Positions 7,560 to 63,345 of a DNA stretch of 64,000 nucleotides are shown here, piece after piece. The translations under genes were made by a program, and so were the position numbers. This DNA comes from the human T2T-CHM13v2.0 reference genome, Homo sapiens. Position 1 is the stretch's first letter, and each line of letters begins with the position of its first letter. The notes under the pieces are model-generated. The model was not told the DNA's origin. It did not search any database and saw only the letters and a program-made list of their open reading frames with translations. The DNA is taken from positions 44,096,001-44,160,000 of the forward strand of contig CP068257.2 in assembly GCA_009914755.4 (NCBI GenBank). Direction: 5' to 3'.

Positions 7560-10227
7560 TATAATAGCTGTTTTAATGTCTTTGTGTACTAATGATCTCT
7601 GTGTGTATAATTTCTGAGTTTGTATCTTACTGATCAACCAATCTCATTATGAGATATATTTTTGTGCTTCTTTGCATGCCTCGTCAGTTTTGGACGGATG
7701 AAAGACATCGTAAACTTTGTATTGTTGGACTCTGCATTCTTTTAAAATATTTTGAACTATGTTTTGGAATGCATTTAAGTTACTTGGAAAGTTCAGATTT
7801 TTTGGCAGCTTGTTGCTGACTTTGTTAAGCATTGCCTAGTGTAGTACCCCAGCTTAGTCTGCTGCCAGTGCAGTCATTTGAGTGCTCAGTGTGGTGTCCC
7901 CTGTACTGCAAGGCTCCTGCAGCCTAGTTGTTGGGAGTAGGAACTCTTCCCAGATCTGTGTGAGCCATAGCTATTGTCTGTACTTTTTCTTTTCATTGGT
8001 TCTTCCCCCGACCTCCTGTAGTCCACTCACTCACATGTGCCCATCCATGTCCAGGCAGAGACTAGAGAATCCACCACAGACCTCTGGGATGTTTCTCTGT
8101 GCAGGGCATTCCTTTCTGGTACTCTGCCCTCTAATTCTAGCTTTTGCCTCCTGTGCTGTGGGGTCCTGAGTGCAGTGCATCCTGATGAGACGGTGCTGCA
8201 GGCCCAGCCCACCGACTTCCAGAGATGTCAGTTGCATCTCTCCCCTTTCCTCTCTGCCTTTGCCTCCCTGAATTCTCAACTCCGTTTCCAACTCCCCTGG
8301 CCTTGCCTGGGTTCCCCCTTCCTGTGCTGTGGCCCAGGCACTCTCCCCAGGCTGTAGGCTGCAGCAATTGTAGGATGCAACCCATTTGCTTCCCTTCTCT
8401 GGGGATCGTTGTCCTGTGCTGCCTGCTGCTCCATGTCTGAACACCCTCGTCTCATATCTTTTGTCTGACTTTTAAGTGAGGTGGGAGAGTCACCCCAGTC
8501 TCACTCTTTCTCTGTCACAGCTGACCATGGTCCAGGCTTTCTTATGTTTCTGTAGTCTTTGGACATCACTGGACAGAGGCCGGCTGTCTGTCTGTAGGAG
8601 TCTCTGCGCGGTGTTCACCTGCTAATTCAGTCTGCACAGGGAGAACCCTTGGCCTGTGGTCCAGGTGAAGGCCCTTCAGGGTGGAGCCGAGACTGTGGGT
8701 GTTCTGGGCTGTCCCGTCCCGTATACTCTCCCTGTGTTCTTACCTTCCCCTATAGATTCAGAGGGATTTGAGAATCAGCTGTGCCCCAGACGTCAGTCAG
8801 GCCGAGGACTGTGGGTCAAGGTTCAGGGACCCTGGGGTTCTGAGTCTTTATCAGTGTCGTGTATGTTCCAGACTCAGTTTAGAATTGAATCACTTTTTAT
8901 GGAATTCTTTCTCTGGGAAACTGTCTTTGACCTTCCCAATAACTGATTTATAAACATGTCTTTTTAATAGATGACTTTGGTTTGATAAAATTTGGTATCT
9001 AAGGTGATAGATTGTGATTTCTGTCTCTCTTTGGAAAGCCTATGATTTCCAATTTTAATTGTTTTTTCCTTCAACTGTTTACAGGACTGTCTACGAGAGA
9101 GAAGCTCCCCACGTGGTTCCGTGTAAGTAGTGCTTCTTATGATGCTGTCACAGGCGATATTTTTAGACTAAACGACTCTTTCGGTGTCAGCAGAGTTGAA
9201 AGTCTTGCTCTCAAGGGAAGCTGTGTGTCTCTGCTGACCCTCTGGATCCTGGTTTTATGTCTCATGGGGAACCTGCCTCAGGTCACACTACTGCCAAGAG
9301 CATGTAGTGTGAGTGACACGCGTTTTCCCTTCTTGCTTCTGTGGAACCAAAATTTTAAAAGAGGCAGTTTCCTCCCTCTCTGGTAACCTTTCTCCACAGT
9401 TAACCTGACCATGTAGACCAGCAGGAGCTGGAGGGCCAGTTGTTAGTGCACTTGGAGCCTACTGCACGAGCCTACCGCACAAGCCTACCGCACGCCTTTG
9501 TTCTTGTGCCAACAGTGCCCACTGCCCGGTAGTGCCTGTGTGTGCGGTGGCCATGATGGCACCACAATGTCTGAAGCCACACAGTGCATGGGTGACATCT
9601 GTGGAAAGGACCTGGCACCGGCCAGCACACAGAGGCACTCACCTGTCTCACACAATGCACTGTGGTCCCAATTCTAGTTTTGTAAAACTACCTTGAGATG
9701 ACTCCTTTTAAAATTATCCTTAAGATGTCTTTCTTTTTCTAAAGCTTATTAAAGGTCATTTTCAAAACGTTTTCAGCAGGAACTTGGTGTATATTTGCAG
9801 TTCTGCATGGAAAACTAATGTAGTCATGATGGCTGCTGATGCTGATGAAGTAGTACCAGCCAGCCTGATTTCATAACTTCCATAGAATCACTCCCTTCTT
9901 CCTCCCAGTGCCCCTTTGAGATAGGGATTGTTATTCCCTGAGGCTTGGCGAGGTGAAGTAACTCACTCAGGTTATCTTGGTGCCAGTGGTGGGGCTGGGA
10001 TTTGAGCCAAGTCTTCCAACTTCACAATAGCAGAGTAAGAAGAGCTGCCTTGTTGATGGGACGTGGGTCGGAGCTCCCAGTGTGTCTTGCCTTCCTGGTG
10101 TGCTTGATGGCAGCCCTGGGCTGCTGTGAGGTCCTGAGCACAGTGCATCCTGAGGAGACAGTGCTGCGGGCCCCGCCTACTAACTTCCAGAGATGTCAGC
10201 TGCAGCAGGGCAGCGCCCTGGTTAGAG

Positions 10228-10335
10228 AGACGGCATGGGGAGTTGGCAGGGGGAGGCCCTCGGAGAGATGGCATGGGGAGTTGGCAGGGGGAGGCTCTCG
10301 GAGAGATGGCATGGAGGGGTTGGGGCCTGTGCTCC
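10228..10335. repeat. 38-bp tandem duplication (~2.7 copies)
   Basis: 'gagagacggcatggggagttggcagggggaggccctcg' / 'gagagatggcatggggagttggcagggggaggctctcg' / 'gagagatggcatggaggggttggggcctg' can be read directly as a tandem array. Confidence 0.85.
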
Positions 10336-11884: not shown

Positions 11885-12246
<362 letters not shown>

Positions 12247-12374
12247 TAGAGTTTTTTGCTTTCCGTAAGATAACAATTTTCCTTATAGAACTGAAAAATA
12301 TGAAAAACAATTTAAAAATTCACCTATGCTTAGCCTTAGTGCAGAGAGCAGCTGAAGGGTATCAGGGGATTGTC

Positions 12375-13560
12375 CTCACCCCTTCCTGTCCATGGCCCCC
12401 TGGGTAGCCCCCCCATCTTCATCAGCCCACCCCTTCCTGTCCATTGTCTTCTGCGTGGCCCCTCCCATCTTCATCAGCCCACCCCTTCTTGTCCATGGTC
12501 CTCTGGGTGGCTCCCCCATCTTCATCAGCCCACCCCTTCCTGTCCACGGTCCTCTGGGTAGCCCCCCCATCTTCATCAGCCCACCCCTTCCTGTCCACGA
12601 TCCTCTGGGTGGCCCCCCCATCTTCATCAGCCCACCCCTTCCTGTCCACGGTCCTCTGGGTAGCCCCCCCATCTTCAGCCCACCCCTTCCTGTCCACGGT
12701 CCTCTGGGTGGCCCCACCATCTTCATCAGCCCACCCCTTCCTGTCCACGGTCCTCTGGGTAGCCCCCCATCTTCATCAGCCCACCCCTTCCTGTCCGCGG
12801 TCCTCTGGGTGGCCCCCCCATCTTCATCAGCCCACCCCTTCCTGTCCATTGTCCTCTGGGTGGCCCTCCCCCATCTTCATCAGCCCACCCCTTCCTGCCC
12901 ATTGTCCTCTGGGTGGCACCCCCCATCTTCATCAGCCCACCCCTTCCTGTCCATGGCCCCCTGGATGGCCCCCCCATCTTCATCAGCCCATCCCTTCCTG
13001 TGCATTGTCCTCTGGGTGGCCCCTCCCATCTTCATCAGCCCACCCCTTCCTGTCCATGGTCCTCTGGGTAGCCCCCCCATCTTCATCAGCCCACCCCTTC
13101 CTGTCCACGGTCCTCTGGGTAGCCCCCCCATCTTCATCAGCCCACCACTTCCTGTTTGTCCATGGCCCCCTGGATGGCCCCCCCATCTTCATCAGCCCAC
13201 CACTTCCTGTTTGTCCATGGCCTCCTGGGTGGCCCCCCGATCTTCAGCCCACCCCTTCCCGTCCATGGTCTTCTGGGTGGCCCCTCCCTTCTTCATCAGC
13301 CCATCCTTCCTGTCCATTGTCCTCTGGGTGCCCCCCCGCCATCTTCATCAGCCCACCCCTTCCTGTCCATTGTCCTCTGGGTGGCCCCTCCCATCTTCAT
13401 CAGCCCACCCCTTCCTGTCCATTGTCCTCTGGGTGGCCCCCCCATCTTCATCAGCCCACCCTTCCTGTCCATTGTGCTCTGGGTGGACCCCCCATCTTCA
13501 TCAGCCCACCCCTTCCTGCCCATGGCCCTCTGGGTGGCCTCCCCATCTTCATCAGCCCAC
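12375..13560. repeat. GC-rich minisatellite/VNTR, 51-52-bp unit x ~23
   Basis: The unit is 'CATCTTCATCAGCCCACCCCTTCCTGTCCA(C/T)GGTCCTCTGGGT(A/G)GCCCCCC'. I measured the period as 52, then 51, from successive 'catcttc' positions (12414, 12466, 12517). Variants include ccacgg/ccatgg/ccattg/ccgcgg and gtagccccccc/gtggcccctccc. A partial copy 'cctcaccccttcctgtccatggccccctgggtagccccccc' starts the array. Confidence 0.95.
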
Positions 13561-14323
13561 AGCACCTGGTGCTGCATTGTAGTCACTGTCACACACACTC
13601 TCTTCGCTTTGCCTCTGTGTCCTCCCAGTGTCCATGTGGTAGAACAAGATCACAGCATTGATGGAGACCACATAGCTGTGCAGACTAGTCTCGTCTAATT
13701 TCACAGCCAAGGGCTTGGATCCACCCTCACTTGCCTAGTCCCAGCAGCACCCCCTTGAAGAATTGCTTTTGCCTGAGTCCATTCTGTTCTGTCTGCTTCC
13801 CCTTCCTCAGATCTCTGATCTAATCAGATGTGAGTCTCAGCTGGCGTCTATGCCTCAGTTAAGGAGAAGAGAGTTGCTTCTCTGCCCCATCCTCCGACCC
13901 AAGGGGCTAAGTCGCGTTTCCTCCCTTGGCCTTTCCTGCCCCTCAAGTGCAAGGAGCCCTCGCTGTTAGCTCAGGACAAGCCCACCCTCTTGTTTCCTCA
14001 GGGACTTGCCCCGCTGTGTGGTCTGTGGTGCCATCTCTCTGCGTGCCCGCCTCACTGGCAGGTCACTTCTGTTAGCATCCGGGATGACTTAGTAGCTCCC
14101 ATGTTAAAATTAAAAAAAATTATTCCCTTGATCCTTGATTTTCAGCCAGATTGGCAAATTGATTTCACAGTGACCTCTGCTTCCTCTTAAAAGCCCACTA
14201 AAATGACAGGCAAGATGTTTTTAAAGGGCAAAAGTCACCAAGAAATTGAGAAAGAAGATGACAGAACTTTGAAAGTTGGAAGGCAAATGGTCAGAGCAGA
14301 TCTGAACCTAGAAAGCTGAGAGG

Positions 14324-14555
14324 TGCGTGTGTGTGTGCATGTGAGTGTGTGTGTGGTGTGTGTAGTGTGTGTGTGTGTGTGTGTGTGAAGTGTGTGTGCA
14401 TGTGTATTTACCCACACAGGTCTGTGTGTACACATGCGTGTGTGTATGTGTGTGCAGGTGAGTGTGTATATAGGTGTGCACGCATGCGTGTGTGTGTGGA
14501 AGGTGTGTGCATGTGTGTGTGGTATGTGTGCATCTGTTATATGTGTGTGTGTTGA
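14324..14555. repeat. Compound (TG)n / GTGTGCATG-type low-complexity tract
   Basis: 'gtgcgtgtgtgtgtgcatgtgagtgtgtgtgtggtgtgtgtagtgtgtgtgtgtgtgtgtgtgaagtgtgtgtgcatgtg...' is purine/pyrimidine alternating. It produces Cys/Val/His-rich pseudo-ORFs on both strands. Confidence 0.95.
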
Positions 14556-17360: not shown

Positions 17361-17504
17361 AATAAGGGTTAATAATAGGGTTAGGGCTAGAGTTAAGGCT
17401 AGCATAAGGGTTGGAGTTACCGTTAGTGTTCGAGTTATTGTAAAGGTTAGGATTAGGGTTACTGTTAGGGTTATCGTGAGGGTTATGGCTAGGGTGATAG
17501 TGCT
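17361..17504. repeat. Degenerate telomere-like hexamer array (TTAGGG-derived, ~24 units)
   Basis: There is a 6-bp periodicity with 'GGTT' in nearly every unit and several exact AGGGTT hexamers, a rotation of TTAGGG. Examples are 'aagggtt aataat agggtt agggct agagtt aaggct agcata agggtt ggagtt accgtt agtgtt cgagtt ... aggatt agggtt actgtt agggtt atcgtg agggtt atggct agggtg'. Confidence 0.7.
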
Positions 17505-19640: not shown

Positions 19641-20915
19641 GCCACACGGTGTTGTGTCAGCATCGCTGTGTCAGTCCATTGACGTAGCGCCACACGGTGT
19701 TGTGTCAGCATCGCTGTGTCAGTCCATTGACGTAGCGCACACGGTGTTGTGTCAGCATCGCTGTCAGTCCATTGACGTAGCGCACACGGTGTTGTGTCAG
19801 CATCGCCGTGTCAGTCCACTGACGTAGCGCACACGGTGTTGTCAGCATCGCTGTGTCAGTCCATTGACGTAGCGCACACGGTGTTGTGTCAGCATCGCTG
19901 TCAGTCCATTGACGTAGCGCCACACGGTGTTGTCAGCATCACTGTGTCAGTCCATTGACGTAGCGCACACGGTGTTGTCAGCATCGCCGTGTCAGTCCAT
20001 TGACGTAGCGCACACGGTGTTGTCAGCATCGCCGTGTCAGTCCATTGACGTAGCGCACACGGTGTTGTCAGCATCGCCGTGTCAGTCCATTGACGTAGCG
20101 CACACGGTGTTGTCAGCATCGCCGTGTCAGTCCATTGACGTAGCGCACACGGTGTTGTCAGCATCGCCGTGTCAGTCCATTGACGTAGCGCACACGGTGT
20201 TGTCAGCATCGCCGTGTCAGTCCATTGACGTAGCGCACACGGTGGTGTCAGCATCGCCGTGTCAGTCCATTGACGTAGCGCACACGGTGGTGTCAGCATC
20301 GCCGTGTCAGTCCATTGACGTAGCGCACACGGTGGTGTCAGCATCGCCGTGTCAGTCCATTGACGTAGCGCACACGGTGGTGTCAGCATCGCCGTGTCAG
20401 TCCATTGACGTAGCGCACACGGTGGTGTCAGCATCGCCGTGTCAGTCCATTGACGTAGCGCACACGGTGGTGTCAGCATCGCCGTGTCAGTCCATTGACG
20501 TAGCGCCACATGGTGGTGTCAGCATCGCCGTGTCAGTCCACTGACGTAGCGCACACGGTGTGGTGTCAGCATCGCCGTGTCAGTCCACTGACGTAGCGCA
20601 CACGGTGTTGTGTCAGCATCGCCGTGTCAGTCCACTGACGTAGCGCACACGGTGTTGTGTCAGCATCGCCGTGTCAGTCCACTGACGTAGCTCACACGGT
20701 GTTGTGTCAGCATCGCCGTGTCAGTCCACTGACGTAGCTCACACGGTGTTGTGTCAGCATCGCCGTGTCAGTCCATTGACGTAGCTCACACGGTGTTGTG
20801 TCAGCATCGCCGTGTCAGTCCATTGACGTAGCGCCACACGGTGTTGTCAGCATCGCTGTGTCAGTCCATTGACGTAGCGCACACGGTGTTGTCAGCATCG
20901 CTGTGTCAGTCCATT
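19641..20915. repeat. CpG-rich minisatellite/VNTR, 45-bp unit (43-48-bp variants) x ~28
   Basis: The unit is 'TCCATTGACGTAGCGCACACGGTGTTGTCAGCATCGCCGTGTCAG'. Each 60-bp sequence line shifts the pattern by 15, giving a period of 45. There are 4-5 CpG per unit, and the motif TGACGTAG sits in every unit. Variants are distributed in blocks: GTGTTGT about 19930-20220; GTGGTGT about 20220-20520; the 47-bp GTGTTGTGT plus CCACTGACG variant about 20520-20800; TpG-decayed units at both ends. Confidence 0.96.
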
Positions 20916-45870: not shown

Positions 45871-47420
45871 TTAAAGTAAATTATTAGTTTTTTGTTAACC
45901 TATTTATTTAATTATACAAATTTATGGGACACGTGAAATTTTGTTACATGTGTATAATGTGTAGTGATCAAGTCAGGATATTTAAGGTGTCCATCACCTG
46001 AATACAATATAGTTTTGTTAAATACATTCACCCTACTCTGATATTATTGGGTTTATTCCATCTATCTTACTGAAGGTTTGTAATCCACTTCCTTTCCTCT
46101 TCATCCTCTCCCCTAACCCCCATTCACCCTTCCTAGTCTCTAGTATTTATCTTTCCATTGTGTACCTCCATGTGATCAAATTTTTTAGCTTCTACATATA
46201 GGTGAGAACATAAGATATTTGTCTTTTTGTGCCTGGCTTATTTCACTTAAGGTAATGACTTTGAGTTCCATCCTTGTTGCTGCAACTGACATGGTTTTAT
46301 TCTTTTTTAAGGCTGCATAGTATTCCTTTGTGTATATATACTACATCTTCTCTATCCATTCACCCTTTGATCAATACTTAGGTTGATTCCATATCTTATT
46401 ATTGTGAATAGTACTGCAATAAACATAGGAGTGCAGGTACTACTTTGATATACTGATTTTATTTCCTTTGGGTAGATACCCAGTAGTGGGATTGCTTGAT
46501 TTAATGGTAATTTTATTTTTAGTTTTTTTGAAAAATCTCTGTACTGTTTTCCATAGTGGCTGTACTCGTTTACATTCCCACCAATGATATATAAGTATTT
46601 TCTTTTTCCTGCATCCTCACCAACACCTGTTATTTTTTTATTATGGCCATTCTATTTTTAATAACAGCCATTCTGAATGGTTCAAGATGACATCTCATTG
46701 TGGTTTTGATTTGCGTTTCTCTGGTGATTAATTATGTTGAACATTTTTTTCACATACTTCTTGGCTGTTTGTGTGTCTTCTTTTAAGAAATGTCTATTAA
46801 GGTCCTTTGTTCACTTTTTAGTGGGACTATTTGTTTTTTTCCCTTTTGATTGAGTTCCCTTTATATTCTGGATGTTAGTCCTCTGTCAGAAGAATAATTT
46901 GCAAATATTTTCTCCCTATTCAACAGGTTGTCTTTTCACTCTGCTGATTGTTTTCTTTGCTGTGCAGAAGCTTTTTAATTTAATATAGTTCCATTTGTCT
47001 ATTTTTGTTTTTGTTGCCTATGCTTTTGCGGTCTTAGTCATAAATTCTTTGCCTAGACCAATGTCCGGGAGAGTTTTCCCTAGGTTTTCTTCTAGTATTT
47101 TTATAGTTCCATGTCTTACATTTAAGTATTTTTATAGTTTCAGGTCTTACAGTTAAGTATTTTTATAGTTTCAGGTCTTACATTTTAAGTATTTAATCCA
47201 TTTTGAATTGATTTTTGTGTATGGTGAGAGATAAGGTCGAATTTTATTCTTCTGCATGTGGCTATCCAATTTTTTCCACCACCGTTTATTGAAGAGGGTG
47301 TCCTTTTCCCCCAGTGTAAGTTCTTGTCAGCTTTGTTGAAGATTATGTTGAACATTTTTTCACATACTTCTTGGCTGTTTGTGTGTCTTCTTTTAAGAAA
47401 TGTCTATTCATGTCCTTTGT

Positions 47421-47738
47421 TCACTTTTTAATGGGACTATTAAACCAGAAGCTTTGTGGTTTTATTTCTGGGTTCTCTATTCTGCTCCAGTGATCTCTGT
47501 GTCTATTTTTATATAAGTGCCATACTGTTCTGGTTACTGTACCCTTGTTATATATTTTGAAGTCAGATAATGTAATGCCTCCAGCTTTGTTCTTTTTGCT
47601 CAGGATTGCTTTAGCTATTTGTGCCCTTTTTTGGTTCCATATGGATTTTAGAATTTTTTTTTCTAATTCTGTGAATGAGGTTGGTATTTTGATAGGGCTT
47701 GCATTGAATCTGTAGATTGCTTTGGGCAATATGGTCAT
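47421..47738 (-). pseudogene. L1 ORF2p C-terminal remnant (inside nested L1)
   Basis: The 105-aa ORF '[95 protein letters not shown]' parallels the L1 ORF2p segment '[97 protein letters not shown]'. Stop codons truncate it on both sides. Confidence 0.85.
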
Positions 47739-58232: not shown

Positions 58233-60013
58233 GCTCTACCTCTACCTCTACCTCTACCTCTACCTCTACCTCTACCTCTACCTCTACCGCTACCGCTACC
58301 CCTACCTCCTACCTCCTACCTCCTACCTCCTACCTCCTACCTCCTACCTCCTACCTCTACCCTCTTTCCACTGTCTCCCTCTGATGCCGAGCCGAAGCTG
58401 GACTGTACTGCTGCCATCTCGGCTCACTGCAACCTCCCTGCCTGATTCTCCTGCCTCAGCCTGCCGAGTGCCTGCAATTGCAGGCGCGCGCCGCCACGCC
58501 TGACTGGTTTTCGTATTTTTTGGGTGGAGACGGGGTTTCGCTGTGTTGGCCAGGCTGGTCTCCAGCTCCTGACCGCGAGTGATCCGCCAGCCTCGGCCTC
58601 CCGAGGTGCCGGGATTGCAGACGGAGTCTCCTTCACTCAGTGCTCAATGGTGCCCGGGCTGGAGTGCAGTGGCATGATCTCGGCTCGCTACAGCATCCAC
58701 CTCCCAGCAGCCTGCCTTGGCCTCCCAAAGTGCCGAGATTGCAGCCTCTGCCCGGCCGCCACCCCGTCTGGGAAGTGATGAGTGTCTCTGCCTGGCCGCC
58801 CATCGTCTGGGATGTGAGGAGCCCCTCTGCCTGGCTGCCCAGTCTGGAAAGTGAGGAGCGTCTCTGCCCGGCCGCCATCCCATCTAGGAAGTGAGGAGCG
58901 TCTCTGCCCGGCCGCCCATCATCTGAGATGTGGGGAGCGCCTCTGCCCTGTCGCCCCGTCCGGGATGTGAGGAGCATCTCTGCCCGGCCGCCCCGTCTGA
59001 AAAGTGAGGAGACCCTCTGCCTGGCAACCGCCCTGTCTGAGAAGTGAGGATCCCCTCCGCCCAGCAGCCACCCCGTCTGAGAAGTGAGGAGCCCCTCCGC
59101 CCGGCAGCCACCCCGTCTGGGAAGTGAGGAGCATCTCCGCCCGGCAGCCACCCCGTCCAGGAGGGAGATGTGGGGGTCAGCCCCCCGCCCGGCCAGCCGC
59201 CCCGTCCGGGAGGGAGGTGGGGGGGTCAGCCCCCCGCCCGGCCAGCCGCCCCATCCGGGAGGTGAGGGGCGCCTCTGCCCGGCCACCCCTACTGGGAAGT
59301 GAGGAGCCCCTCTGCCCGGCCAGCCGCCCCGTCTGGGAGGAGGTGGGGGGGTCAGCCCCCCGCCTGGCCAGCCGCCCCGTCCGGGAGGGAGGGGGGGTCA
59401 GCCCCCCGCCCGGCCAGCCGCCCCATCCGGGAGGTGAGGGGCGCCTCTGCCCGGCCGCCCCTACTGGGAAGTGAGGAGCCCCTCTGCCCGGCCACCACCC
59501 CGTCTGGGAGGTGTACCCAACAGCTCATTGAGAATGGGCCATGATGACAGTGGTGGTTTTGTGGAATAGAAAAGGGGGAAAGGTGGGGAAAAGATTGAGA
59601 AATCGGATGGTTGCCGTGTCTGTGTAGAAAGAGGTAGACATGGGAGACTTTTCATTTTGTTCTGTACTAAGAAAAATTCTTCTGCCTTGGGATCCTGTTG
59701 ATCTGTGACCTTACCCCCAACCCTGTGCTCTCTGAAACATGTGCTGTGTCCACTCAGGGTTAAATGGATTAAGGGCGGTGCAAGATGTGCTTTGTTAAAC
59801 AGACGCTTGAAGGCAGCATGCTCGTTAAGAGTCATCACCACTCCCTAATCTCAAGTACCCAGGGACACAAACACTGCGGAAGGCCGCAGGGTCCTCTGCC
59901 TAGGAAAACCAGAGACCTTTGTTCACTTGTTTATCTGCTGACCTTCCCTCCACTATTGTCCTGTGACCCTGCCAAATCCCCCTCTGCGAGAAACACCCAA
60001 GAATGATCAATAA

Positions 60014-60045
<32 letters not shown>

Positions 60046-60096
60046 TATCAAAGTAAAAAGTTTCCAAAAAAAATAAAAAGTTTCAAAAAAAAAAAA
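58233..60096 (+). mobile_element. SVA retrotransposon, complete: 5' hexamer-like tract, Alu-like region, GC-rich VNTR, SINE-R, AATAAA and A-rich tail. Flanked by an 11-bp target-site duplication
   Basis: 58233-58370 is (CTCTAC)n followed by (CTACCTC)n. 58371-58760 is the Alu-like region, 'ctctttccactgtctccctctgatgccgagccgaagctggactgtactgctgccatctcggctcactgcaacctccctgcctgattctcctgcctcagcctgccgagtgcctgc(g/a)attgcaggcgcgcgccgccacgcctgactggttttcgtattttt..'. 58760-59510 is the VNTR, with repeated 'ctctgcc(c/t)ggc(c/a)gcc..cgtctgggaagtgaggagc' units. 59510-60012 is the SINE-R, 'gggccatgatgacagtggtggttttgtggaatagaaaagggggaaaggtggggaaaagattgagaaatcggatggttgccgtgtctgtgtagaaagaggtagacatgggagacttttcattttgttctgtactaag...cctgccaaatccccctctgcgagaaacacccaagaatgatcaataaa'. 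An (AAAT)n/A-rich tail runs to 60096. The TSD is 'AATAGTGACAG' at 58222-58232 and 60098-60108. Confidence 0.95.
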
Positions 60097-63045: not shown

Positions 63046-63345
63046 AGTGAATGTGTGTGCACACGTGCGTGTGCATGTGTGTGTCTGCACATGCAAATGT
63101 GCATGCATGTTTGTGCATACATAGTGTGTGCACGTGTGTGTGTGATTGCATGTATGTGTGTGATTGTGCACGTAGTGTACCCGCATGTGTGCGAGGGTGA
63201 GTGTGTGCATGTGAGTTCATGTGTGCATGAGTGGGTGCATGTGTACATGTGCTTGTGTGCCTATGAGTGCACGAGTGTGTGCATGTGTTTGTGATCGTGT
63301 CTTTTCATGTGTGTATGTGTACACGTGTGCATACATACATGCAGT
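63046..63345. repeat. Imperfect (TG)n/(GTGCATG)-type low-complexity tract (~300 bp)
   Basis: 'gtgtgtgcacacgtgcgtgtgcatgtgtgtgtctgcacatgcaaatgtgcatgcatgtttgtgcatacatagtgtgtgcacgtgtgtgtgtgattgcatgtatgtgtgtgattgtgcacg...' yields Cys/Val/His/Thr-rich pseudo-ORFs on both strands. Confidence 0.9.

What the first reader, a model, noticed from the sequence alone, without database searches (positions are those of the whole stretch)
12375..13560. 1.2-kb GC-rich 52-bp minisatellite immediately downstream of an AluY, generating 400-aa proline-rich phantom ORFs
About 23 copies of a 51-52-bp unit, 'CATCTTCATCAGCCCACCCCTTCCTGTCCAYGGTCCTCTGGGTRGCCCCCC', are seen directly. Positional variants include CACGG/CATGG/CATTG/CGCGG and GTAG/GTGG, plus C-tract length changes, so this is a multi-allelic MVR-type array. 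The unit has no stop codon in any + frame. The six-frame track therefore shows 396- and 405-aa Pro/Ser/Leu-rich ORFs on + (12392-13582, 12444-13661) and several Gly/Arg/Trp-rich ORFs on the minus strand. Because 52 is not divisible by 3, the apparent protein repeat is a 3-unit, 52-aa super-period cycling through frames. That argues for a non-coding VNTR over a mucin or PRP-like exon. Together with the second minisatellite 6 kb away and the telomere-like tract at 17.4 kb, it points to a minisatellite-rich, recombinationally active region. Such regions are classically subtelomeric in human.
Basis: partly seen in the sequence, partly recalled or inferred. Interest (0 to 1): 0.55.

Follow-up and report, generated by a model that had tools for sequence, protein, structure and literature searches.

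The report
Ordinary non-coding 51-bp human minisatellite
This is a real but ordinary 1.2-kb GC-rich minisatellite (about 23 copies of a 51-bp unit) in primate non-coding DNA, and the long 'proline-rich ORFs' across it are a by-product of its base composition, not a gene.

Summary
The array is real. TRF finds it at 12377-13560 with period 51, 23.1 copies, 89% matches and score 1772.

One correction matters. The modal and consensus unit is 51 bp (17 codons), not 52. Runs of 51-bp units therefore hold one frame, and there is no regular 3-unit super-period. Frames change irregularly at the 11 of 22 units whose length is not a multiple of 3.

The non-coding conclusion still holds:
- The consensus is stop-free in 5 of 6 frames by composition alone.
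- Substitutions show no codon-position or synonymous bias in any frame.
- No protein or Pfam family matches any frame on either strand.
- CpG is strongly depleted (observed/expected 0.13).

The AluY is a separate insertion with its own target-site duplication. It lies on the opposite strand, 130 bp from the array.

The G-rich (minus) strand carries only long-loop G4 motifs. There is no exact PRDM9 13-mer, and the match to the Jeffreys core is 9 of 10.

Allele-length polymorphism and a subtelomeric location could not be tested, because no human genome or population resource was reachable.

Verdict: a known kind of element, of low interest.

The parts
12377..13560 (+). Minisatellite array of 22 full units plus two partial end units. 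Consensus: CATCTTCATCAGCCCACCCCTTCCTGTCCATGGTCCTCTGGGTGGCCCCCC (51 bp). The C-rich strand is the + strand.
   Evidence: TRF gives period 51, 23.1 copies, 89% matches, score 1772. The unit table and alignment show 93.5% mean identity to the consensus. GC is 63.5%, C is 47% of the + strand, and CpG observed/expected is 0.13. The boundaries are sharp and share the phase CAC. The flanks hold no decayed copies.
12517..12818 (+). Block of six units carrying the CpG variant (CACGG, or CGCGG in the last) that alternate GTAG/GTGG. This is a local dimeric (about 102-bp) higher-order repeat.
   Evidence: Shown in the unit alignment. TRF scores period 103 equal to period 51. Within the block, lag-2 identity is 0.946 against 0.933 for lag 1. 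Across the array, neighbouring units are more alike than in shuffled order, p=0.017.
13129..13238 (+). Two adjacent 55-bp variant units that share a TGTT insertion and a CCAC change. This marks a recent local duplication inside the array.
   Evidence: Unit alignment.
12392..13582 (+). Phantom ORF of 396 aa.
   Evidence: Listed. No Pfam family. Explained by the stop-free consensus.
12444..13661 (+). Phantom ORF of 405 aa that passes through all three + frame peptides.
   Evidence: Listed. No protein relative at E<=1e-3. No Pfam family.
11948..12246 (-). AluY-like element with its poly(A) tail, seen as poly-T on +, and the target-site duplication TAGAGTTTTTT. It is an independent insertion whose 5' end faces the array across 130 bp.
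   Evidence: blastn gives 92.2% to AluY and 89.0% to AluSx, with both consensi recalled from memory. The duplication is shown.

Best explanation
This is a non-coding, GC-rich, strand-asymmetric minisatellite: 51-bp unit, about 23 copies, 1.18 kb, in hominid DNA that is either intronic or intergenic.

Shown:
- It is a head-to-tail array with sharp ends, and both ends fall at the same phase of the unit.
- Its variant units occur in blocks: a dimeric GTAG/GTGG block, a pair of 55-bp units, and runs of CATTG units.
- Its long ORFs follow from a unit that lacks stop codons in 5 of 6 frames.

Inferred:
- A roughly 51-bp segment was duplicated at a short CAC microhomology.
- The array then grew and turned over by replication slippage, unequal sister-chromatid exchange and gene conversion. 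These processes amplify local blocks of variant units.
- Methylated CpGs decayed over time (CACGG to CATGG).
- The array has no sequence-specific function. It probably varies in copy number between haplotypes, as long GC-rich arrays usually do.
For: - Array statistics, and 18 unit matches in the window against 0 in shuffles.
- Unit lengths: 11 of 22 are not a multiple of 3.
- The consensus is open in 5 of 6 frames.
- No codon-position or synonymous bias in any of the six frames.
- No protein relative for + strand translations or minus-strand translations, and no Pfam family above cut-off.
- CpG observed/expected is 0.13, and 7 of the 12 CpGs sit at the single variable CAYGG site.
- Neighbouring units are more alike than in random order, p=0.017, and there is a dimer block and a duplicated 55-bp pair.
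- The flanks carry no unit-like sequence, and both ends fall at the CAC phase.
- The unit has no relative elsewhere in the window, including the SVA VNTR, the Alus and the 45-bp array.
- No Rfam family overlaps it.
- None of about 70 large ORFs across the window has a protein relative, consistent with non-coding surroundings.
Against: - Nothing in the sequence contradicts this reading.
- Copy-number polymorphism, the defining population property of a VNTR, was not observable. The unit was absent from the metagenome and prokaryote-genome collections, and no human assemblies were reachable.
- Units differ by about 6.5% from the consensus and the array is CpG-depleted. It is therefore not freshly homogenised and could be relatively stable.
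- Transcription and a regulatory role could not be tested.
Confidence: 0.9

Rival explanations
1. The array is a coding tandem-repeat exon, such as a proline-rich or mucin-like protein with a 17-aa repeat.
For: The modal unit is 51 bp = 17 codons. Five of six frames of the consensus are open. ORFs of 396 and 405 aa span the array, and six consecutive units keep one frame.
Against: - Half the units (11 of 22) shift the frame, so no single peptide repeat persists.
- There is no synonymous or third-position bias in any frame.
- No homologue among 5.8 billion protein clusters for either strand, and no Pfam family.
- The ORFs end within 22-100 bp of the array edge.
- CpG is depleted, as in bulk methylated non-coding DNA.
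- The frames yield Trp/Cys/His/Phe-containing peptides, not Ser/Thr/Pro mucin-type ones.
Confidence: 0.02
2. The array is a cis-regulatory VNTR: a length-dependent set of binding sites, or a structure-forming G4/i-motif tract, that modulates expression or methylation of a nearby gene.
For: - 15 G4 motifs with loops of 12 nt or less lie on the minus strand of the array, against 8 in the rest of the window on that strand.
- The array is GC-rich and strand-asymmetric.
- Many human VNTRs are associated with expression of nearby genes (abstract of PMC8096271, seen).
Against: - Only 1 G4 motif has all loops of 7 nt or less. The usual motif needs an 11-nt loop. Only G4s with loops of 3 nt or less destabilised minisatellites in the yeast assays (PMC6614823).
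- Single strands form no notable hairpin, with z-scores from +0.96 to -2.2.
- The array is CpG-poor and not island-like.
- No promoter or gene could be identified near it.
Confidence: 0.07
3. The array is the internal tandem-repeat region of a transposable element or a dispersed satellite family, not a single-locus minisatellite.
For: Many human minisatellites arise inside or beside dispersed repeats. An Alu lies 130 bp away, and AT-rich, possibly L1-derived, sequence adjoins it.
Against: - The unit has no similarity to the SVA VNTR, the Alus or anything else in the 64-kb window.
- The Alu has its own target-site duplication and is separate.
- The flanks show no unit-like sequence.
- This was not testable against Dfam or RepeatMasker.
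Confidence: 0.05

Closest known systems
Classical GC-rich human minisatellites (VNTRs) such as MS205, MS32, the HRAS1 VNTR, CEB1 and CEB25
   Same: Unit of tens of bp (51), array of about 1 kb, more than 60% GC, strong purine/pyrimidine strand asymmetry, and interspersed variant repeats usable for an MVR map. Local blocks of variants imply unequal exchange or conversion. A second long array lies nearby.
   Different: No evidence here of hypervariability. Units are about 6.5% diverged from the consensus and CpG-decayed. The Jeffreys core GGGCAGGANG is matched exactly twice and with one mismatch in most other units, 18 hits at one mismatch or fewer (GGACAGGAAG; core recalled from memory). Chromosomal position is unknown.
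G-quadruplex-forming unstable minisatellites (CEB1, 39 nt; CEB25, 52 nt)
   Same: Similar unit length to CEB25. The G-rich strand has G-runs (G7, G4, G3) that give one long-loop G4 motif per unit junction, 15 in the array.
   Different: The G4 motif needs an 11-nt loop, and only 1 motif has all loops of 7 nt or less. CEB1-type instability required loops of 3 nt or less (PMC6614823). The unit sequence is unrelated to the CEB25 motif as I recall it.
Coding VNTRs (MUC1 60 bp, MUC2 69 bp, PER3 54 bp, DRD4 48 bp)
   Same: The modal unit length is a multiple of 3, and long open frames cross the array.
   Different: Half the units break the frame. There is no selective signature and no homologous protein.

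Membership tests
Minisatellite / VNTR | Head-to-tail tandem array with a unit of about 10-100 bp | tested here: met
   TRF period 51, 23.1 copies, 89% matches. Unit table.
Minisatellite / VNTR | More repetition than chance would give | tested here: met
   18 matches of a 26-mer at up to 3 mismatches, against 0 in 100 shuffles. TRF score 1772.
Minisatellite / VNTR | Interspersed variant repeat units (an MVR structure) | tested here: met
   28 distinct substitutions plus indel variants, arranged in blocks.
Minisatellite / VNTR | Copy number varies between alleles in the population | not testable with these tools
   No human assemblies were reachable. The unit is absent from metagenome contigs and genome contigs.
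Classical hypervariable (Jeffreys-type) minisatellite | Shares the GGGCAGGANG core | tested here: inconclusive
   2 exact matches and 18 at one mismatch or fewer on the minus strand (GGACAGGAAG). The 16-nt core is not matched, with the best hit at 3 mismatches. The core was recalled from memory.
Subtelomeric minisatellite cluster | Lies in the terminal 5-10% of a chromosome arm | not testable with these tools
   The locus could not be placed. No protein, Rfam or literature anchor was found. The only indirect hints are a second array longer than 1 kb at 19643-20915 and a degenerate TTAGGG-like tract.
G4-driven unstable minisatellite (CEB1 type) | A short-loop (3 nt or less) G4 motif in each unit | tested here: not met
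   1 motif with loops of 7 nt or less and 15 with loops of 12 nt or less. The typical central loop is 11 nt. The criterion comes from PMC6614823.
PRDM9-motif recombination hotspot | Exact CCNCCNTNNCCNC 13-mer | tested here: not met
   0 exact matches and 7 with one mismatch in the array. The motif was recalled from memory.
Coding tandem repeat (mucin- or PRP-like exon) | All unit lengths are multiples of 3, so one frame is kept | tested here: not met
   11 of 22 units are not a multiple of 3.
Coding tandem repeat (mucin- or PRP-like exon) | Purifying-selection signature (synonymous or third-position excess) | tested here: not met
   6-9 of 28 substitutions are synonymous in each frame, against 20-29% expected. 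Codon positions are hit 9/10/9 times.
Coding tandem repeat (mucin- or PRP-like exon) | Homologous proteins or a domain family exist | tested here: not met
   No hit at E<=1e-3 for either strand. No Pfam family above cut-off.
TE-internal VNTR (for example SVA) | Unit related to a TE consensus, or array embedded in a TE | tested here: inconclusive
   No similarity to the SVA VNTR, the Alus or any other window sequence. No Dfam or RepeatMasker library was available.

The most novel reading that the evidence does not exclude
The array might be a functional, length-polymorphic regulatory VNTR, possibly a lineage-specific expansion. Its G-rich/C-rich strands (long-loop G4 or i-motif) or repeated binding sites would tune a host gene, perhaps jointly with the CpG-rich 45-bp array 6 kb downstream. 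Nothing found here supports this. It is simply not excluded.
Probability: 0.07. Interest if true: 0.35.

Novelty: already known. Interest (0 to 1): 0.08.

Why it matters
It matters little biologically. GC-rich minisatellites are a long-known, exhaustively catalogued class: TRF lists 353,460 minisatellites in the human genome, 85,222 of them above 50% GC (PMC3486850).

The practical value is as a caution. Stop-free, C-rich repeat units generate 400-aa ORFs in several frames that should not be called as genes. A period divisible by 3 is not evidence for coding, and a period not divisible by 3 is not needed as evidence against it.

If the array proved highly polymorphic, it would be one more VNTR marker or a candidate expression-associated VNTR.

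Tried and rejected
1. Placing the locus through proteins. Three searches of the 5.8-billion-cluster collection gave no hit at all. They used the 405-aa ORF and two concatenations of about 70 large stop-to-stop ORFs from the whole window, including minus-strand array ORFs and the 45-bp array ORFs.

2. Finding the unit elsewhere. An exact 26-mer scan of metagenome contigs and genome contigs gave 0 hits. For this reason allele comparison and encoding-contig look-ups were not pursued.

3. Literature.
- Full-text search for six unit-derived 14-19-mers from both arrays and both strands found only an irrelevant salmon MHC paper.
- Searches of the supplements of one VNTR catalogue paper (PMC8096271) and of the Piazza 2012 minisatellite tables found no occurrence; a second catalogue paper (PMC11701250) had no supplement text held, so it could not be searched.
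- A '51-bp VNTR' search found no candidate locus.

4. Rfam over the whole window gave only an SRP/Alu-like hit at 34070-34227.

5. Hairpin or cruciform potential of the unit was not notable.

6. Exact PRDM9 13-mer and chi motif: absent.

7. Self-BLAST for segmental duplications found only two short matches of 83-101 bp.

8. I rejected the idea that the Alu seeded the array. The Alu has its own target-site duplication and lies 130 bp away.

Full report
OBSERVATION

Reading 11900-14000 and running TRF on the whole window confirm one tandem array at 12377-13560. TRF gives period 51 (scored equally as a 103-bp dimer), 23.1 copies, 89% matches, 4% indels and score 1772.

Splitting the array at the conserved TCTTCA anchor gives 22 full units and two partial end units. 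Full-unit lengths are 51 (x10), 52 (x5), 50 (x2), 55 (x2), and 48, 49 and 53 (once each).

The MAFFT consensus is CATCTTCATCAGCCCACCCCTTCCTGTCCATGGTCCTCTGGGTGGCCCCCC, 51 nt. Units are on average 93.5% identical to it.

A 26-nt piece of the unit matches 18 times at up to 3 mismatches, all within the array, against 0 in 100 dinucleotide-preserving shuffles. The ORFs at 12392-13582 (396 aa) and 12444-13661 (405 aa) and several minus-strand ORFs are as stated.

The array is 63.5% GC. C makes up 47% of the + strand and G 16%.

CORRECTIONS TO THE OBSERVATION

1. The period is 51 = 17 codons, not 52. The claimed regular '3-unit, 52-aa super-period' does not exist. Across the first six units, the 405-aa ORF repeats one peptide (SSSAHPFLSTVLWVAPP) in a single frame. 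It then switches frame irregularly wherever a unit of 50, 52, 53, 55 or 49 bp occurs.

2. The Alu occupies 11968-12246 on the minus strand, with its poly(A) seen as poly-T at 11948-11967. It is 92.2% identical to an AluY consensus and 89.0% to AluSx; both consensi were recalled from memory. It is bounded by its own target-site duplication, TAGAGTTTTTT, and ends 130 bp before the array. It is an independent neighbour, not part of the array.

CODING OR NOT

The consensus unit in tandem has no stop codon in five of six frames. Long ORFs are therefore expected from composition alone.

Against coding:
- 11 of 22 units have a length that is not a multiple of 3.
- The 28 distinct substitutions fall 9/10/9 on the three codon positions. 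In each of the six frames, 6-9 of 28 are synonymous, which matches the 20-29% expected for random substitutions.
- The 405-aa ORF contains all three + frame peptides, yet it has no relative at E<=1e-3 among 5.8 billion protein clusters. The minus-strand array ORFs have none either.
- Pfam gives nothing above cut-off.
- CpG is strongly depleted: 12 observed against 92 expected, a ratio of 0.13. Seven of the 12 CpGs sit at the single variable site CA[C/T]GG, as expected for decay of methylated CpG.

Its stated reason (52 is not divisible by 3) does not.

ANATOMY AND LIKELY HISTORY

The array begins at ...tgtcct|CACCCCTTCC and ends at ...CAGCCCAC|agcacc. Both ends fall at the same phase of the unit, sharing CAC. 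The 200-bp flanks contain no decayed unit copies, with local alignment scores inside the shuffle range.

Variant units are not randomly ordered:
- Units at 12517-12818 carry the CpG variant and alternate GTAG/GTGG, forming a dimeric sub-repeat.
- Two adjacent 55-bp units at 13129-13238 share a TGTT insertion.
- CATTG units form runs at 12819-12923 and 13288-13492.
- Identity at lags 1-2 exceeds that of shuffled unit orders (0.889 against 0.877, p=0.017).

This pattern is expected from replication slippage, unequal exchange and conversion that amplify local blocks. That mechanism is inferred from the pattern and from established knowledge of minisatellites. It was not observed directly.

The unit has no relative elsewhere in the window, including the SVA VNTR, the Alus and the 45-bp array. 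It is absent from the metagenome and prokaryote-genome collections.

STRUCTURE AND RECOMBINATION MOTIFS

On the G-rich (minus) strand there are 15 non-overlapping G4 motifs when loops of up to 12 nt are allowed. Only 1 remains with loops of 7 nt or less. The typical motif is GGGGTGGG-CTGATGAAGAT-GGGGGGG, with an 11-nt loop.

In the yeast minisatellite assays, only G4s with loops of 3 nt or less caused G4-dependent instability (PMC6614823). A CEB1-like mechanism is therefore unlikely here.

Single strands fold no better than shuffles, with z-scores of +0.96, -0.10, -0.31 and -2.2. The only structure is a 6-bp stem per unit.

There is no exact PRDM9 13-mer (CCNCCNTNNCCNC), and 7 sites have one mismatch. 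The Jeffreys core GGGCAGGANG is matched exactly twice and with one mismatch in most other units (18 hits at one mismatch or fewer), as GGACAGGAAG. The 16-nt core is not matched. All these motifs were recalled from memory.

CONTEXT

The window is hominid DNA. It holds many Alus, L1 ORF fragments and a complete SVA with a target-site duplication.

About 70 stop-to-stop ORFs of 88 aa or more (all but five of them at least 100 aa), taken outside the Alus, SVA, L1-like ORFs and the AT-rich 46-52.5 kb block, have no protein relative. Rfam finds only an SRP/Alu-like hit. No exon, and so no gene name, could be obtained, and the locus could not be placed.

Literature and supplement searches for the unit sequence found nothing; one further paper had no supplement text held.

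On the subtelomere claim:
- The window does hold a second array longer than 1 kb at 19643-20915 (45-bp unit, 27.8 copies, 96% matches).
- GC-rich minisatellites are enriched in the terminal 5-10% of chromosome arms (PMC3486850). That is a statistical tendency.
- The window is only 44% GC and has no large internal duplications.
- The 'telomere-like' tract has just 3 exact TTAGGG in 145 bp.

The claim can be neither supported nor refuted here.

COMPARISON AND VERDICT

The element meets the structural definition of a GC-rich minisatellite. It fails every test for a coding repeat, for a short-loop G4 minisatellite and for an exact PRDM9 motif. Population polymorphism and chromosomal position could not be tested.

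It belongs to a long-known, exhaustively catalogued class: 353,460 TRF minisatellites in the human genome, 85,222 of them above 50% GC (PMC3486850). Interest is low.

The most novel reading still open is a regulatory, length-dependent VNTR. It has no positive support here.

Noticed in passing
window 19643-20915: The second minisatellite (45-47-bp unit, 27.8 copies, 96% matches) is CpG-rich. It has 125 CpGs with observed/expected 1.18 and is the only CpG-island-like stretch in the 64-kb window, in sharp contrast with the CpG-depleted 51-bp array (0.13). Unit lengths form two blocks, 45 bp x15 and 47 bp x8. Its 202- and 205-aa ORFs have no protein relative or Pfam family. It may be a young array or one unmethylated in the germline, and so a candidate methylation-variable VNTR.
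   Followed up: partly
window 58236-60094: A complete SVA retrotransposon lies on the + strand. It has a variant hexamer array (CTCTAC/CTCCTAC, 58234-58361), an Alu-like region, a VNTR at 58745-59513, an AATA/poly(A) tail and an 11-bp target-site duplication, AATAGTGACAG. This marks the window as hominid.
   Followed up: partly
window 17365-17502: The 'telomere-like' tract is a highly degenerate hexamer repeat, with only 3 exact TTAGGG in 145 bp and TRF matches of 65-80%. It lies next to an L1 ORF2-like fragment read on the minus strand. It is weak evidence for anything telomeric.
   Followed up: partly
whole window: The + strand shows T>A in nearly every 2-kb bin and G>C in most. 13 of 17 distinct Alu loci among the blastn hits are on the minus strand, and the L1 ORF fragments at 49.4-50.5 kb are also on the minus strand. 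This is a weak hint that the window lies inside a transcription unit read on the + strand, such as a large intron. No exon was found.
   Followed up: partly
window 14323-14553 and 63098-63288: Long, impure (GT)n / GTGTGCAT-type microsatellite tracts. The first lies 760 bp downstream of the 51-bp array.
   Followed up: no
window 8154-8236 vs 10122-10204; 46731-46831 vs 47342-47441: Short dispersed duplicates of 83 bp at 87% identity and 101 bp at 96% identity. They are probably copies of unclassified interspersed repeats. A 38-bp x2.6 G-rich mini-array also lies at 10225-10323.
   Followed up: no
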